A stretch of DNA of 54,083 bases from a virus (lineage: Duplodnaviria > Heunggongvirae > Uroviricota > Caudoviricetes). Position numbers and translations under genes: made by a program. The notes beneath the pieces were generated by a model. It searched no databases and was not told the origin of the DNA. It saw nothing but the letters and a program-made list of their open reading frames with translations. Location of the stretch: positions 1-54,083 of the IMG/VR virus record IMGVR_UViG_2534682338_000012; one strand, written 5' to 3'. Position 1 is the first letter of the stretch. Every line of letters begins with the position of its first letter. This document shows positions 1,369 through 8,300 of this stretch, piece after piece.

Positions 1369-1444
1369 GCCGATATAGCTCAGTTGGTAGAGCAGCGCAT
1401 TCGTAATGCGAAGGTCGTAGGTTCGACTCCTATTATCGGCACCA
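1369..1444 (+). tRNA. thrW: tRNA-Thr (anticodon CGU)
   Basis: 76-nt cloverleaf-compatible sequence GCCGATATAGCTCAGTTGGTAGAGCAGCGCATTCGTAATGCG...TTCGACTCC...GGCACCA with CGT anticodon and 3' CCA; coordinates approximate to 1-2 nt. Confidence 0.9.
1399..1444. repeat. attL core (3' 46 bp of tRNA-Thr)
   Basis: Exact repeat of 41810-41855 by eye (ATTCGTAATGCGAAGGTCGTAGGTTCGACTCCTATTATCGGCACCA). Confidence 0.7.
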
Positions 1445-5423: not shown

Positions 5424-5892
5424 TTTGCTGCTCCTCATCATATCGACCCTGCAAGGCCGATTAGTTTCTCCACAAAACAGAGAAGAACACCTGCGGTGGC
5501 AGCCGCCCGGATGGATTGGGTTATGAGCCCGTCGTCCGGTGATGCTCTTCTCTGTTTTGTAAAAAAGGACGGTACCAGCCGGAAGCAAGAGTACAAGCTG
5601 GTACCGCCAGGACTACACACAGCATAAAGTTGTGGTGCCGGGTGCCTCCCGGTGCCTGGCGAAGGTTGCACACCAGGCGGGTGGGTATCTACAGAAGGTC
5701 GACTGTCAGCCTCAACCTTAACCCGCGTGCGCTGAGCCGCATTCACCACAACGCTAAGAATTCTCTCTGGTTGAAAATACTTAGCTGTTATGTGCCTGCT
5801 TTTAGCCACATCAGGCGAGGTGGACCTGGTTATTCCCCAACAACAAGGATTCGGTTAATCTGGTTATCCCCAACAACGCAAAAGGAAAAGAA

Positions 5893-6327
5893 ATGTCCGG
5901 TAATATCTACACGTTGTACAAATCCCACTGTGAAAATGTTGGAAAGTATCGGGGCATTGAAATCAGTGGGGTAGTGTCATCAGTCGAAATAAGTAAAGTT
6001 GAATCAAGGGCAACATTACTTACTCTTCTGGACCTTGTCTTACATGAGCACCGGAAGAAATTCGGCACTCCCTATAATCAGTTGAATGGGAAAAAGGCTC
6101 TGGTTCACCTTATTCTGATGAAGCATCACTGGATGCCAAAGCAGATTAATGAGATGAAATTTGATGAACTTCTTCTTTCAATTCAGGATGAACTCACGCT
6201 TGATAAAATAAGCGTAACCGCCCAGAAATTTTTAGATTATCGAGACTGGAGATCACAAATTCATCACTTTGATGATTTTGACGAAAATGAATGGGATCCT
6301 AATTTGTCTGCACAATATCTAAAGTAA
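5893..6327 (+). CDS. hypothetical accessory (moron) protein, 144 aa
   Basis: ATG with AAGGAAAAG RBS, AT-rich by eye, opposite orientation to surrounding early genes, preceded by tandem direct repeat. Confidence 0.5.
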   Translation: MSGNIYTLYKSHCENVGKYRGIEISGVVSSVEISKVESRATLLTLLDLVLHEHRKKFGTPYNQLNGKKALVHLILMKHHWMPKQINEMKFDELLLSIQDELTLDKISVTAQKFLDYRDWRSQIHHFDDFDENEWDPNLSAQYLK

Positions 6328-6505
6328 CATCCTGTGATAAAACCGTGATTTCCTGATCCAGTTTTTTTAAGGAGTCTATTGTTTCCTGTCGATAAGACAG
6401 CACTTCACGAAGCTGGTTTATAGCTGCCAGCTTCTTTGTCATCCACTCATAAATTTCCTCATCTGTGTAGCCAGGCGCGACGATTTTGGGTTCTGTTTTG
6501 TGCAT
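6299..6505 (-). CDS. small hypothetical protein (68 aa), first ORF downstream of putative pL
   Basis: Start at MHKTEPK preceded by GAGGAGG RBS; 3' end overlaps the convergent 144-aa gene by ~29 bp. Confidence 0.4.
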   Translation of the reverse strand: MHKTEPKIVAPGYTDEEIYEWMTKKLAAINQLREVLSYRQETIDSLKKLDQEITVLSQDVTLDIVQTN

Positions 6506-6567
6506 TTCACACCTCCTCAAGTTATCAGTTACTTGTTGAAGGGGACCAGATTGTTAAAGAGCTAAGC

Positions 6568-6597
6568 GTCCTGTAGGGCGCTTTTTTGTTGCTAACG
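6568..6597 (+). terminator. putative rho-independent terminator (+ strand)
   Basis: GCGTCC-loop-GGGCGC imperfect stem followed by TTTTTTG. Confidence 0.3.
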
Positions 6598-6664
6598 AAT
6601 CATCCTGGACTTCATATGCCCCAGGCGGCTACTTCGTGGGCGTCCTGCCTGTTCGTTGTTTCTC

Positions 6665-6700
6665 TTGGGTACATTATGTATCTTAAAGGTACATTGTCAA
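6665..6700. promoter_or_regulatory. putative OL operators / pL region
   Basis: GGTACAttaTGTA and AAGGTACA motifs related to the palindromes found between cI and cro. Confidence 0.4.
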
Positions 6701-6703
6701 GTA

Positions 6704-6731
6704 TAAAAAAACCTGCCGAAGCAGGTTCATA
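6704..6731 (-). terminator. rho-independent terminator downstream of cI
   Basis: On minus strand: AACCTGC-TTCG-GCAGGTT stem followed by TTTTTTT. Confidence 0.5.
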
Positions 6732-6739
6732 AACATTGA

Positions 6740-7414
6740 TTAGGCTTTGATTTTGTATCTTCTTGGTTTTCCTGAGAAAATCACTGTACCAATTATAGAG
6801 CAATTACCGTTGATCTTAATGTAAGGCTCAGGCCAGTTTGGGTTTAACGCTTTGAGATAACGCTGTGTCCCATCTTCTATTAACCTTTTGAAGGTGGTTT
6901 CACCTGTATCGTGCATCAATGCAATAACGTCGTCACCGTGGCAGGCAGGTACTTCAGGATCGACAAAAATCATGTCTCCCGGGCGGTACTCATCAATCAT
7001 TGAATCACCTATCACCCGCAAGATATAAGTCATTTCCCCACAGGGTACAGGGCAGGGATACGTTTCTGCTGTGCTCAAATCAACCTCAGAATATCCAACT
7101 TCTTTCCATGCTCCGGCCTGTACCCATGATATGACAGGGACTAATGTGATTTGTTTATTAGTGATTGAAACATCAGGTTTTTTTGTGATGTTCGTTGTCT
7201 GGTGTTCTTGATCGAGCCATCCGACAGGTAGGTCGAAACATTTTTCGATGTGTCGTGCCATGCTGTCACCGATATTTTTAGTAGCACCATCTCCCATAAA
7301 CCTGCTGGTCTGGGTTGGCTCGCGATCAATCATAGTGGCAAAGGAAGAATTCCCGCCAACACCATCTCTCAGTTTTCTGGCGTTAGACCGCCGGATGTCA
7401 TGGATTGTTTTCAT
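6740..7414 (-). CDS. cI: CI-like prophage repressor with LexA-like S24 peptidase domain
   Basis: 224 aa; N-terminal HTH region, C-terminal GDSM serine and downstream Lys typical of S24 autocleavage domain; divergent from cro. Confidence 0.9.
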   Translation of the reverse strand: MKTIHDIRRSNARKLRDGVGGNSSFATMIDREPTQTSRFMGDGATKNIGDSMARHIEKCFDLPVGWLDQEHQTTNITKKPDVSITNKQITLVPVISWVQAGAWKEVGYSEVDLSTAETYPCPVPCGEMTYILRVIGDSMIDEYRPGDMIFVDPEVPACHGDDVIALMHDTGETTFKRLIEDGTQRYLKALNPNWPEPYIKINGNCSIIGTVIFSGKPRRYKIKA

Positions 7415-7427
7415 AACGAAATTAAAA

Positions 7428-7500
7428 CCCTTGTACCGTAAAGGTACAAGTATCTTGAAGGTTCATTTCAATCATGTAATATGTACACCGGAGGTACATA
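7428..7500. promoter_or_regulatory. OR operators with divergent pRM/pR
   Basis: 21-bp perfect palindrome CTTGTACCGTAAAGGTACAAG and second palindrome ATGTAC-N7-GTACAT in the cI-cro intergenic region. Confidence 0.55.
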
Positions 7501-7504
7501 TTGT

Positions 7505-7705
7505 ATGAAAGCGTATTGGGACTCTTTAACCAAAGAACAGCAGGGCGAGTTGGCCGGAAAAGTTGGCTCAACACCAGGCTACTTACGGCTGGTTTTCAAT
7601 GGCTATAAAAAAGCCAGTTTTGTGCTGGCTAAAAAACTTGAGCAATGCACGTCAGGTGCAATTACGAAATCTGACTTAAGACCGGATATCTATCCGAAAG
7701 ATTAG
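7505..7705 (+). CDS. cro: Cro-like repressor
   Basis: ~66 aa from MKAYWDSL, GGAGG RBS, divergent from cI, HTH-like. Confidence 0.7.
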   Translation: MKAYWDSLTKEQQGELAGKVGSTPGYLRLVFNGYKKASFVLAKKLEQCTSGAITKSDLRPDIYPKD

Positions 7706-7736: not shown

Positions 7737-8300
7737 ATGAGGCTAACCGTGGGTAAGCATCACTGGAAAGTAGAAAAACAGCCTGAGTGGTACGTGAAAG
7801 CTGTCAGAAAAACTATCGCAGCGTTGCCGGGTGGTTACGCTGAAGCTGCTGACTGGCTGGATGTAACAGAGCACGCATTATTTAACCGCCTTCGTGCCGA
7901 TGGCGATCAGATTTTCCCGCTGGGATGGGCAATGATTTTGCAACGTGCTGGTGGAACTCACTTCATTGCTGACGCTGTGGCGCAGTCTGCAAATGGCGTC
8001 TTTGTGTCTCTTCCTGATGTCGAGGATGTGGACAACGCCGATATCAACCAACGCCTGCTGGAAGTCATTGAACAGATCGGCAGTTATTCAAAACAGATTC
8101 GTTCAGCAATTGAAGACGGTGTAGTGGAACCGCATGAGAAGACAGCAATTAACGATGAGCTGTACCTCTCAATTTCGAAGCTGCAGGAGCATGCAGCTCT
8201 GGTCTACAAAATCTTTTGCGTTTCAGAAAGTAGTGACGCCCGCGAGTGTGCAGCTCCGGGCGCCGTGGCGTGTCGTGACTGTGGAGAAACTAACGCATGA
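7737..8300 (+). CDS. CII-like regulatory protein (large CII/CP76-type)
   Basis: 187-aa ORF immediately after cro; family assignment from memory of prophage CII-like proteins, not verified. Confidence 0.5.

What the first reader, a model, noticed from the sequence alone, without database searches (positions are those of the whole stretch)
5893..6600. Convergent overlapping gene pair at the pL-proximal immunity region
A plus-strand 144-aa AT-rich gene (5893-6327) runs against the direction of the early-left operon and overlaps by ~29 bp the 3' end of a minus-strand 68-aa gene (6299-6505) that is the first ORF downstream of the putative OL/pL. A plus-strand terminator-like hairpin lies at ~6568-6597. 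In lambdoid phages this slot holds rex/sieB-type exclusion genes. Convergent overlap also suggests antisense regulation or a toxin-antitoxin-like arrangement.
Basis: partly seen in the sequence, partly recalled or inferred. Interest (0 to 1): 0.55.

Follow-up and report, generated by a model that had tools for sequence, protein, structure and literature searches.

The report
Conserved convergent two-gene prophage accessory module
The two overlapping, head-to-head genes next to the phage repressor are real and form a conserved, mobile gene pair of unknown function, found in many enterobacterial prophages and always placed with one gene running with, and the other against, a lytic operon.

Summary
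A 144-aa gene (5893-6327, +) and a 68-aa gene (6299-6505, -) overlap by 29 bp. They lie just downstream of an operator-covered pL-like promoter (6700-6673, -). A plus-strand terminator sits at 6564-6589.

The large gene belongs to NCBIfam NF033230, the 'ECs1072 family'. Its predicted fold is all-alpha and has no known relative. The small gene belongs to the YdfC superfamily and is predicted to be one long helix. Both proteins are soluble and acidic. Neither is related to Rex, SieB or any known toxin-antitoxin or defence family.

The new result is that the pair is a unit. About 14 diverged lineages keep the same convergent 3' overlap (29-95 bp). They occur in three lytic-operon settings: pL, the pR operon, and between Q and holin. 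The small gene is always sense to the operon and the large gene always antisense. The two proteins co-diverge, and related phages swap the pair as one cassette.

Published RNA-seq of the Salmonella ST64B homologues shows both genes expressed in lysogens, the large one from its own promoter.

Function is untested. The best guess is a lysogen-expressed accessory protein with a cognate partner encoded in the lytic operon.

The parts
5893..6327 (+). ECs1072-family gene (144 aa), antisense to the early-left operon. Predicted soluble, acidic, all-alpha protein.
   Evidence: NCBIfam NF033230 scores 157.8 bits against a cutoff of 70. phrog_5286 matches full length. The AF2 model has pLDDT 87.9. No fold relative was found.
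6299..6505 (-). YdfC-superfamily small gene (68 aa), the first ORF of the pL transcript. Predicted N-terminal motif plus one long helix.
   Evidence: phrog_1744 matches 68/68. It is 41% identical to YdfC-family proteins. hhalign against the Q-type partner family gives probability 96.6%, E 4.9e-10. AF2 gives pLDDT 89.7 with a helix at residues 15-60.
6299..6327 (.). 29-bp convergent overlap of the two coding 3' ends.
   Evidence: Homologous pairs overlap by 44-95 bp.
6510..6518 (-). Shine-Dalgarno GAGGAGGTG of the 68-aa gene.
   Evidence: Read from the sequence.
6564..6589 (+). Intrinsic terminator for the + strand cargo gene. It lies beyond the 5' end of the small gene.
   Evidence: The same hairpin follows the homologous pair in L186. 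It is kept in PhiR29_1, which has + strand cargo, and absent from the homology shared with SfV, which has - strand cargo.
6409..6434 (+). Weaker terminator-like hairpin inside the small gene, with a poor T tract.
6673..6700 (-). pL-like promoter overlapped by operator-like repeats (6657-6695).
5826..5878 (+). Two direct repeats CTGGTTAT(T)CCCCAACAAC (5826-5845, 5860-5878) upstream of the 144-aa gene. This is the candidate promoter or regulatory region. That role is inferred; no consensus sigma-70 promoter was found.
   Evidence: The motif is shared with the L097 homologue.
5878..6545 (.). Limits of the exchangeable cassette that carries both genes.
   Evidence: blastn breakpoints against PhiR29_1 (5877 / 6546) and SfV (5823 / 6594).
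5559..5782 (-). STnc100/PasD-like structured RNA ending in an intrinsic terminator, next element downstream in the pL transcript. It belongs to the backbone, not the cassette.
   Evidence: Rfam RF02076 scores 40.5 bits (gathering score 47), E 1e-6. The terminator was read. Genuine STnc100 flanks the Q-type modules.

Best explanation
The two genes form one mobile accessory module of temperate enterobacterial phages.

**Layout.** The large gene (ECs1072 family) is transcribed from its own promoter against the flow of a lytic operon, and it is expressed in the lysogen. The small gene (YdfC superfamily, a single long helix) is read with the lytic operon, directly behind a major lytic promoter. Here that promoter is pL.

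**RNA interplay.** The 3' ends overlap, and the large gene's terminator lies within or beyond the small gene. The two RNAs are therefore mutually antisense, and RNA polymerases from the two promoters meet head-on.

**Proposed switch.** When the lytic promoter fires at induction, small-protein output rises. The large gene is silenced by transcriptional interference and RNA duplex formation.

**Proposed function.** I infer that the small protein is the cognate partner, an antagonist or regulator, of the large one. The large protein would provide a lysogen-state function such as excluding or aborting other phages. The partner would spare the prophage's own lytic cycle, a form of self-immunity.

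**Shown.** The anatomy, conservation of the pair, its fixed polarity, co-divergence of the two proteins, and lysogenic transcription of a homologous pair.

**Inferred.** The RNA interplay, any protein-protein partnership, and the defence role.
For: **Pair conservation.** 13 diverged lineages, plus the Sakai prototype, keep an ECs1072-family gene with a convergent, 3'-overlapping YdfC-superfamily ORF.

**Homology of the small proteins.** The small families from the pL and Q settings are homologous: hhalign probability 96.6%, E 4.9e-10.

**Three settings, one polarity.**
- pL-proximal: the window, L181 and L185.
- pR operon: between the cII-like gene and O in Sakai Sp4.
- Q-holin.

**Co-divergence.** Mantel r = 0.78, p = 1e-4.

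**Cassette exchange.** Both genes are exchanged together relative to SfV and PhiR29_1.

**Terminator placement.** The large gene's terminator is embedded in the small ORF in 5 of 7 Q-type lineages, with differing stem sequences. In the pL-type loci with a detectable terminator (the window and L186) it lies beyond the small ORF start.

**Published RNA-seq (PMC7067206).**
- STMMW_20121 is the ST64B homologue (435 nt, 71-bp overlap with its neighbour, same gap to the holin as in L006). It has its own promoter and 61-269 TPM in 16 of 17 conditions.
- Its partner STMMW_20131 has 23-258 TPM.
- The flanking Q gene has 1-5 TPM and the holin 0.1-33 TPM.

**Other expression evidence.** ECs1072 gives a microarray signal in the Sakai lysogen.
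Against: - No functional assay exists for either protein.
- There are no hits to defence or TA libraries, and the fold has no relative that could suggest a function.
- Each gene can occur alone. L097 and L225 have the large gene without the small one. SKA5 and the Qin-type ydfC loci have the small gene without the large one.
- In ST64B both genes are transcribed together in lysogens, so strict either/or expression does not hold in the Q-holin setting.
- No consensus promoter was found upstream of the 144-aa gene in the window.
- Whether pL is fully silent in this lysogen is unknown.
Confidence: 0.4

Rival explanations
1. Independent neighbours. The small gene is an ordinary promoter-proximal early gene (as ydfC is in the Qin dicBF operon). 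The ECs1072 gene is a separate single-gene moron that tends to land at, or hitch-hike with, its 3' end. The two products have no functional link.
For: Each gene occurs without the other. In Qin, ydfC is followed directly by the dicF untranslated region (PMC5069750). Tight linkage alone could produce co-divergence.
Against: The same pairing, polarity and 3' overlap recur in three different operons and in about 14 lineages down to roughly 20-30% identity. Both genes are swapped as one cassette. The terminator of one gene is encoded by conserved codons of the other.
Confidence: 0.2
2. A toxin-antitoxin-like addiction or abortive-infection pair. Both genes are co-expressed in the lysogen. One protein is toxic and the other (or its antisense RNA) neutralises it. 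Reciprocal antisense RNAs set the ratio.
For: Both homologues are expressed at similar levels in ST64B lysogens. The proteins are small and co-diverge. Convergent 3'-overlapping transcripts resemble type I TA layouts.
Against: No known toxin or antitoxin domain is present, and the small protein has no DNA-binding domain. Neither protein is hydrophobic. In the window the small gene sits behind a repressor-controlled pL, so an unopposed toxin would be expected in the lysogen. The large gene survives alone in L097 and L225.
Confidence: 0.2
3. A regulator of the phage's own development. Antisense transcription from the large gene, perhaps together with its protein, brakes leaky pL, pR or pR' read-through. 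This would stabilise lysogeny or time the lytic programme. The small protein would be an early or late regulatory factor.
For: The module is always placed just behind a major lytic promoter, with the large gene antisense. Known phage antisense regulators occupy similar positions, for example lambda OOP and paQ and P22 sar (textbook knowledge). Owen et al. left 'accessory or regulatory' open.
Against: A well-folded, conserved 145-aa protein is not needed for a purely RNA-level brake. Many related phages lack the module. Neither protein has a nucleic-acid-binding signature, and both are acidic.
Confidence: 0.15
4. Rex- or SieB-type membrane exclusion system, as the first reader suggested for this slot.
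For: The position next to cI and pL is analogous to lambda rexAB. That rests on textbook knowledge and on position only.
Against: There is no sequence match to Rex or SieB families in Pfam or PADLOC. There is no transmembrane segment: the maximum 19-residue Kyte-Doolittle mean is 0.84. Gene orientation and operon structure also differ.
Confidence: 0.03

Closest known systems
STMMW_20121 / STMMW_20131 (Sb50) locus of Salmonella prophage ST64B (Owen et al. 2020, Microb Genom, PMC7067206)
   Same: The pair is homologous: the large proteins are 29% identical (E 5e-16) and the small proteins belong to the same superfamily. Both are convergent overlaps (71 bp there, 29 bp here). The large gene is antisense to lytic genes. 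It was shown to be transcribed in lysogens from its own promoter and was flagged as a candidate accessory or regulatory gene.
   Different: The ST64B pair lies between Q and the holin, not at pL. There the terminator is embedded in the small gene, and both proteins end in a W-D-P motif read off the same palindrome. The paper discussed only the large gene as a candidate locus and assigned no function.
ydfC of the Qin prophage dicBF operon (E. coli K-12)
   Same: It is a homologous small protein, about 40% identical to the window's 68-aa protein. It is promoter-proximal in the repressor-controlled early-left operon and is followed by an untranslated region carrying an Hfq-binding sRNA and a terminator (PMC5069750). 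The window has an analogous STnc100-like element.
   Different: Qin has no ECs1072-family gene convergent to ydfC. The function of YdfC is unknown.
Prophage morons transcribed against lytic operons (e.g. lambda bor) and prophage defence with cognate self-immunity (BstA/aba of BTP1)
   Same: Both are lysogen-expressed accessory genes embedded in, or next to, lytic operons. bstA also sits downstream of the repressor. The idea that the prophage carries its own antidote for induction comes from that system.
   Different: There is no sequence or fold relationship. The antidote there is a DNA element (aba), whereas here it would be a small protein plus antisense transcription. A defence phenotype has not been shown here.
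Type I toxin-antitoxin loci with convergent 3'-overlapping transcripts (e.g. txpA/ratA, bsrG/SR4 in B. subtilis prophages)
   Same: They have convergent transcription units with complementary 3' ends and lie in prophages.
   Different: In those loci one partner is a non-coding RNA and the toxin is a small hydrophobic peptide. Here both partners are conserved soluble proteins.

Membership tests
ECs1072 family phage-associated protein (NCBIfam NF033230) | Full-length match to the curated HMM above its cutoff | tested here: met
   157.8 bits against a cutoff of 70, covering residues 4-144 of 144. PGAP gives the same name in E. coli genomes.
YdfC family / superfamily (no curated Pfam or NCBIfam model found) | Sequence homology to YdfC-family small proteins over the full length | tested here: met
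   tblastn gives 39-41% identity over 97% of the query, E 2e-9. phmmer hits are listed. phrog_1744 matches 68/68.
Moron (independently transcribed accessory cassette, sensu Hendrix) | Present or absent between otherwise collinear related phages | tested here: met
   SfV and PhiR29_1 share the flanks but carry other cargo.
Moron (independently transcribed accessory cassette, sensu Hendrix) | Own terminator and deviant base composition | tested here: met
   The + strand terminator is at 6564-6589. GC is 0.35-0.42 against 0.45-0.58 in the flanks.
Moron (independently transcribed accessory cassette, sensu Hendrix) | Own promoter active in the lysogen | tested here: inconclusive
   No consensus promoter was found in the window. 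An own transcription start and lysogenic expression are published for the ST64B homologue only.
RexAB / SieB superinfection exclusion | Homology to RexA, RexB or SieB | tested here: not met
   Pfam and PADLOC scans returned nothing for either protein.
RexAB / SieB superinfection exclusion | Membrane component (RexB and SieB are membrane proteins) | tested here: not met
   There is no hydrophobic stretch. The maximum 19-residue hydropathy mean is 0.84 for the large protein and 0.29 for the small one, and both are acidic and soluble.
Type II toxin-antitoxin | Co-directional bicistronic operon with a recognisable toxin or antitoxin domain | tested here: not met
   The genes are convergent. There are no TA domains in Pfam, NCBIfam or PADLOC.
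Type II toxin-antitoxin | Toxicity of one partner, relieved by the other | not testable with these tools
   This needs expression experiments.
Type I toxin-antitoxin | Small hydrophobic toxin peptide plus a non-coding antisense RNA | tested here: not met
   Both partners encode conserved soluble proteins. Only the convergent 3' overlap is shared.
Known anti-phage defence systems (PADLOC-DB v2) | HMM match to any catalogued defence protein | tested here: not met
   There were 0 families for either protein at E <= 0.1.
STnc100 sRNA (Rfam RF02076), neighbouring element | Score at or above the gathering threshold | tested here: not met
   40.5 bits against 47 (E 1e-6) over the full model length. 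It is best described as a divergent relative. Genuine matches of 79-108 bits occur next to the Q-type modules.

The most novel reading that the evidence does not exclude
The ECs1072-family and YdfC-like pair is a previously unrecognised two-protein prophage system, for example an abortive-infection or exclusion effector with a dedicated small-protein antidote.

Its insertion into lytic operons is polarity-locked. Together with the dual-coded 3' overlap, this wires in self-immunity. A terminator is written in the partner's codons, and a W-x-P motif is read off one palindrome on both strands. Firing of the prophage's own lytic promoter would raise the antidote and silence the effector at the same time.
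Probability: 0.25. Interest if true: 0.75.

Novelty: new variant of a known kind. Interest (0 to 1): 0.58.

Why it matters
This cassette alone is in about 400 of 5,426 complete E. coli genomes. Related versions sit in prophages of Salmonella, Klebsiella, Serratia, Photorhabdus and Providencia, and in O157 (shown for the Sakai strain), often where Shiga-toxin phages carry their cargo.

The large gene is among the few prophage genes strongly expressed in Salmonella lysogens, yet it has no known function or fold relative.

Treating it as half of a conserved, convergently overlapping pair gives concrete experiments:
- test whether the two proteins interact;
- delete the small partner and measure the effect on induction;
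- challenge cells carrying the cassette with a panel of phages.

It is also a clean natural example of dual coding and of transcriptional interference built into a mobile cassette. If the result is negative, it is simply one more moron hotspot next to the repressor.

Tried and rejected
**Protein-family and structure searches that found nothing useful**
- Pfam, PADLOC and PHROG function terms gave only 'unknown' families.
- The afdb50 library was unavailable.

**Promoter search**
- The consensus sigma-70 scan found no promoter upstream of the 144-aa gene.
- Hand inspection found only conserved motifs whose role is uncertain.

**Homology and locus searches**
- A single-profile HMM of the Q-type partners did not hit the 68-aa protein directly. 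Profile-profile comparison was needed.
- A locus scan with the YdfC alignment failed because no stretch was conserved enough to search with.
- The metagenome scan returned mostly identical copies.

**Readings rejected**
- N-like antiterminator for the first pL ORF: the protein is acidic and has no arginine-rich motif.
- Rex or SieB membership: no homology and no membrane segment.
- The 6564-6583 hairpin as a nutL boxB or a minus-strand terminator: it has a C-A mismatch on the - strand and no U tract there.

**Literature**
- Searches for ECs1072, STMMW_20121 and YdfC found no functional study.

Full report
**What the window is.** The region belongs to an SfIV/SfV-like lambdoid prophage. The stretch 5600-6800 is 97.8% identical to Shigella phage SfIV. 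tRNA-Thr(CGT) at 1369-1444 is the likely attachment site. The immunity region comprises:
- cI, 6740-7414 (-), with a Peptidase_S24 domain;
- cro, 7481-7705 (+);
- a cII-like gene, 7737-8300 (+).

To the left lie CPS-53-type early-left genes of the yfdP/Q/R type, all on the - strand.

**Check of the observation.**
- The 144-aa ORF is 5893-6327 (+) and the 68-aa ORF is 6299-6505 (-). They overlap by 29 bp.
- GC drops to 0.35-0.42 over the pair.
- A + strand intrinsic terminator has its stem at 6564-6583, followed by TTTTTT. Its stem contains a G-U pair on the + strand that becomes a C-A mismatch on the - strand, so it works only for + strand transcripts.
- A near-consensus promoter on the - strand (TTGACA, 16 nt, CATAAT; 6700-6673) is overlapped by an 18-nt repeat. 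That repeat recurs twice between cI and cro, which is the signature of OL/pL.
- The cI terminator is at 6728-6709.
- The 68-aa gene has a strong GAGGAGGTG ribosome-binding site and is the first ORF of the pL transcript.

**What the two genes are.** The 144-aa protein is a full-length member of NCBIfam NF033230, 'ECs1072 family phage-associated protein' (157.8 bits against a cutoff of 70), and of phrog_5286. With a 41-sequence alignment AlphaFold2 gives a confident all-alpha model (pLDDT 87.9). That model has no meaningful structural neighbour:
- among viral models there is nothing;
- by sequence profile against PDB there is nothing.

The 68-aa protein is phrog_1744 (68/68) and about 40% identical to YdfC-family proteins. 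YdfC is the third small gene of the repressor-controlled dicBF operon of prophage Qin, and its function is unknown (PMC5069750). The model of the 68-aa protein is a short N-terminal motif (EPKI-APGY-DEE--EWM) followed by a single 45-residue helix.

Both proteins are acidic and lack hydrophobic segments. Neither matches Pfam families, known defence systems (PADLOC) or toxin-antitoxin domains.

**The slot is a cargo hotspot and the pair is one cassette.**
- Against PhiR29_1, homology runs to 5877 and resumes at 6546.
- Against SfV, it runs to 5823 and resumes at 6594.
- Between these flanks SfV carries a - strand 98-aa gene (orf33) and PhiR29_1 carries a + strand gene.

Both genes of the finding lie inside the exchanged segment. 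The + strand terminator is retained in PhiR29_1, which has + strand cargo, but lies outside the homology shared with SfV, which has - strand cargo. That fits its role as the cargo terminator. Phages Kati, 689R6 and 569R4 carry the same cassette next to a different cI. About 400 of 5,426 complete E. coli genomes contain the stretch at 80% coverage or more.

**The main result: the pair is conserved far beyond this phage.** Distant ECs1072 homologues (28-35% identity) occur in Salmonella ST64B, Klebsiella phages, Serratia, Photorhabdus and Providencia. Each has a convergent - strand small ORF overlapping its 3' end by 71-95 bp. All 91 loci of this subfamily that were retrieved have the partner, although a few are frameshifted.

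That partner family (consensus PYFFNPGM--EELEDWL...EKAALEERL...FPWDPSP) is homologous to the YdfC-like family of the window. hhalign gives probability 96.6% and E 4.9e-10 over 75 columns.

The test also works in the other direction. Five relatives of the 68-aa protein from a sequence-only search were looked up in their contigs. All five have a convergent, overlapping 148-151-aa gene, or in one case a fragment cut off by the contig end. Each of those genes scores as ECs1072 family.

The family prototype, ECs1072 of O157 Sakai (now ECs_5703), sits antisense between the cII-like gene and the replication gene. It too faces a YdfC-like ORF (profile E 1e-7).

In total there are about 14 diverged lineages in three operon settings: pL-proximal, the pR operon, and between Q and holin. 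In every case the small gene is sense to the lytic operon and the large gene antisense. Pairwise identities of the two proteins across lineages correlate (Mantel r = 0.78, p = 1e-4).

There are exceptions.
- One lineage has the large gene alone (L097 and L225).
- SKA5 and Qin-type phages have the small gene alone.
- Phage 118970_sal3 keeps only a remnant of the large gene.

**Fine structure of the overlap.**
- *Q-type modules.* The terminator of the large gene is embedded in the small gene, 48-65 nt after the large gene's stop. It is encoded by the conserved 'EKAALEERL' codons. The hairpin is kept, with different stem sequences, in five of seven lineages. Both proteins there carry a W-x-P motif read from one palindrome, TGGGnnCCCA, on opposite strands.
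- *pL-type (window and L186).* The small protein is shorter and stops before that motif. The terminator lies beyond the small gene's start codon. The large gene's mRNA would therefore be antisense to the entire small gene, including its ribosome-binding site.

**Expression evidence from the literature.** Owen et al. 2020 (PMC7067206) singled out STMMW_20121 of prophage ST64B. They described it as transcribed in almost all conditions, from its own promoter, antisense to the lytic genes, and as a candidate accessory or regulatory gene.

Its coordinates identify it as the ECs1072 homologue. It is 435 nt long, overlaps STMMW_20131 by 71 bp and lies 161 nt from the holin. These match L006 exactly.

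Their Table S5 gives the following TPM ranges:

| Gene | Role | TPM |
|---|---|---|
| STMMW_20121 | large gene | 61-269 in 16 of 17 conditions |
| STMMW_20131 | small partner | 23-258 |
| Q antiterminator | flanking lytic gene | 1-5 |
| holin | flanking lytic gene | 0.1-33 |

So a homologous pair is expressed in lysogens while the surrounding lytic genes are silent. ECs1072 itself also gave a regulated microarray signal in Sakai. No paper assigns a function.

**Mechanism.**
- *Established:* this is a two-gene, mobile, polarity-locked cassette with built-in RNA complementarity, and the large gene is a lysogen-expressed accessory gene.
- *Inferred:* when pL (or pR, or Q-modified pR') fires, head-on transcription and duplex formation shut the large gene down while the small protein is made. 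The small protein would be the cognate partner of the large one.
- *Speculative:* the lysogen function is exclusion or abortive defence, with the small gene providing self-immunity at induction.

The ST64B data show that in the Q-holin setting both RNAs coexist in lysogens. The switch is therefore a matter of balance rather than on/off, and a TA-like reading stays open. 'Independent neighbours' remains a serious rival, because each gene can exist alone.

**Context noticed.** Downstream of the cassette in the pL transcript lies a divergent STnc100/PasD-like structured RNA ending in a terminator (5559-5782, -). Genuine STnc100 flanks the Q-type modules at the equivalent place. It is a known Hfq-binding prophage sRNA (bioRxiv 10.64898/2026.05.13.724894). 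The order promoter, small gene, (large gene), sRNA and terminator, lytic genes therefore recurs, and it parallels ydfC-dicF in Qin.

**Verdict.** This is a new variant of a known kind: a prophage accessory cassette with an unusual conserved two-gene convergent-overlap design and unknown biochemical function.

Noticed in passing
window 5559-5782 (-), terminator about 5608-5560: A divergent STnc100/PasD-like structured RNA (RF02076, 40.5 bits, below the gathering score of 47, E 1e-6) lies in the early-left leader between the cassette and the yfdP-like gene. It is conserved in SfV and PhiR29_1. Genuine STnc100 (79-108 bits) occupies the equivalent position next to the Q-type modules (L094 2264-2460, L007 2028-2223). 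ST64B reportedly makes an ncRNA (STnc1310) downstream of its cI, which may be the same element.
   Followed up: partly
window 5823/5877 and 6546/6594: The site between pL and the STnc100-like RNA is a cargo hotspot with shared flanks. SfV carries orf33 (98 aa, - strand, phrog_3195) and PhiR29_1 a + strand gene (phrog_1244). The flank shared with PhiR29_1 includes the region upstream of the + strand cargo and the + strand terminator, like a fixed expression socket.
   Followed up: partly
window 5826-5845 and 5860-5878: A direct repeat CTGGTTAT(T)CCCCAACAAC lies immediately upstream of the 144-aa gene. A related motif (CTGG-TATCC-CA-CAA-CA-AAGGAA) precedes the 56%-identical homologue in L097. 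It may be a promoter or a regulator-binding site. No consensus sigma-70 promoter was found.
   Followed up: no
L006 2824-2844; L094 3484-3502; L010 4377-4399; L013; L007: In the Q-holin versions of the module, the intrinsic terminator of the large gene is written in the small gene's conserved 'EKAALEERL' codons. The EK codons supply the T-run. The stem sequences differ between lineages, but the hairpin is kept.
   Followed up: yes
L006 2747-2756 and equivalents in L007, L094, L011, L013: A palindrome TGGGnnCCCA in the overlap encodes W-x-P in both proteins on opposite strands (WDP/WDP, WVP/WEP, WAP/WVP). In the window the small gene stops before this site.
   Followed up: yes
L188 9168-9677 (+) and 9361-9816 (-) (E. 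coli O157 Sakai, prophage Sp4): The family prototype ECs1072 (now ECs_5703) lies antisense between the cII-like gene and the replication gene. The facing YdfC-like ORF is unannotated and reads on to 169 aa, as if its stop codon had been lost.
   Followed up: partly
L001 (SfIV), L006 (ST64B), L007 (KPP5665-2): Public annotation of these records is inconsistent. SfIV annotates a probably spurious ORF (SfIV_35, equal to window 5630-5974) over the RNA element and omits the 68-aa gene. The ST64B and Klebsiella phage records omit the ECs1072 homologue altogether and give the small gene an N-terminally over-extended ORF.
   Followed up: partly
window 1369-1444 (+): tRNA-Thr (anticodon CGT) lies at the left end of the window. 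It is presumably the thrW attachment site used by SfV- and SfIV-type prophages.
   Followed up: no
L002 5312-5500 (SfV): SfV carries isrK (64 bits) and C4 antisense RNA (82 bits) matches in its early-right region. No such match reached the gathering score anywhere in the window.
   Followed up: no
ST64B prophage in S. Typhimurium D23580 (PMC7067206, Table S5): The pL-proximal early-left gene STMMW_20251 has 17-290 TPM in conditions other than the SPI2-type media and the peroxide and nitric-oxide shocks, where it reaches 540-1,276 TPM. Expression falls off in the genes further downstream. The pL-proximal region of this phage group is therefore not silent in lysogens, which bears on whether the window's 68-aa gene is really off during lysogeny.
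   Followed up: no
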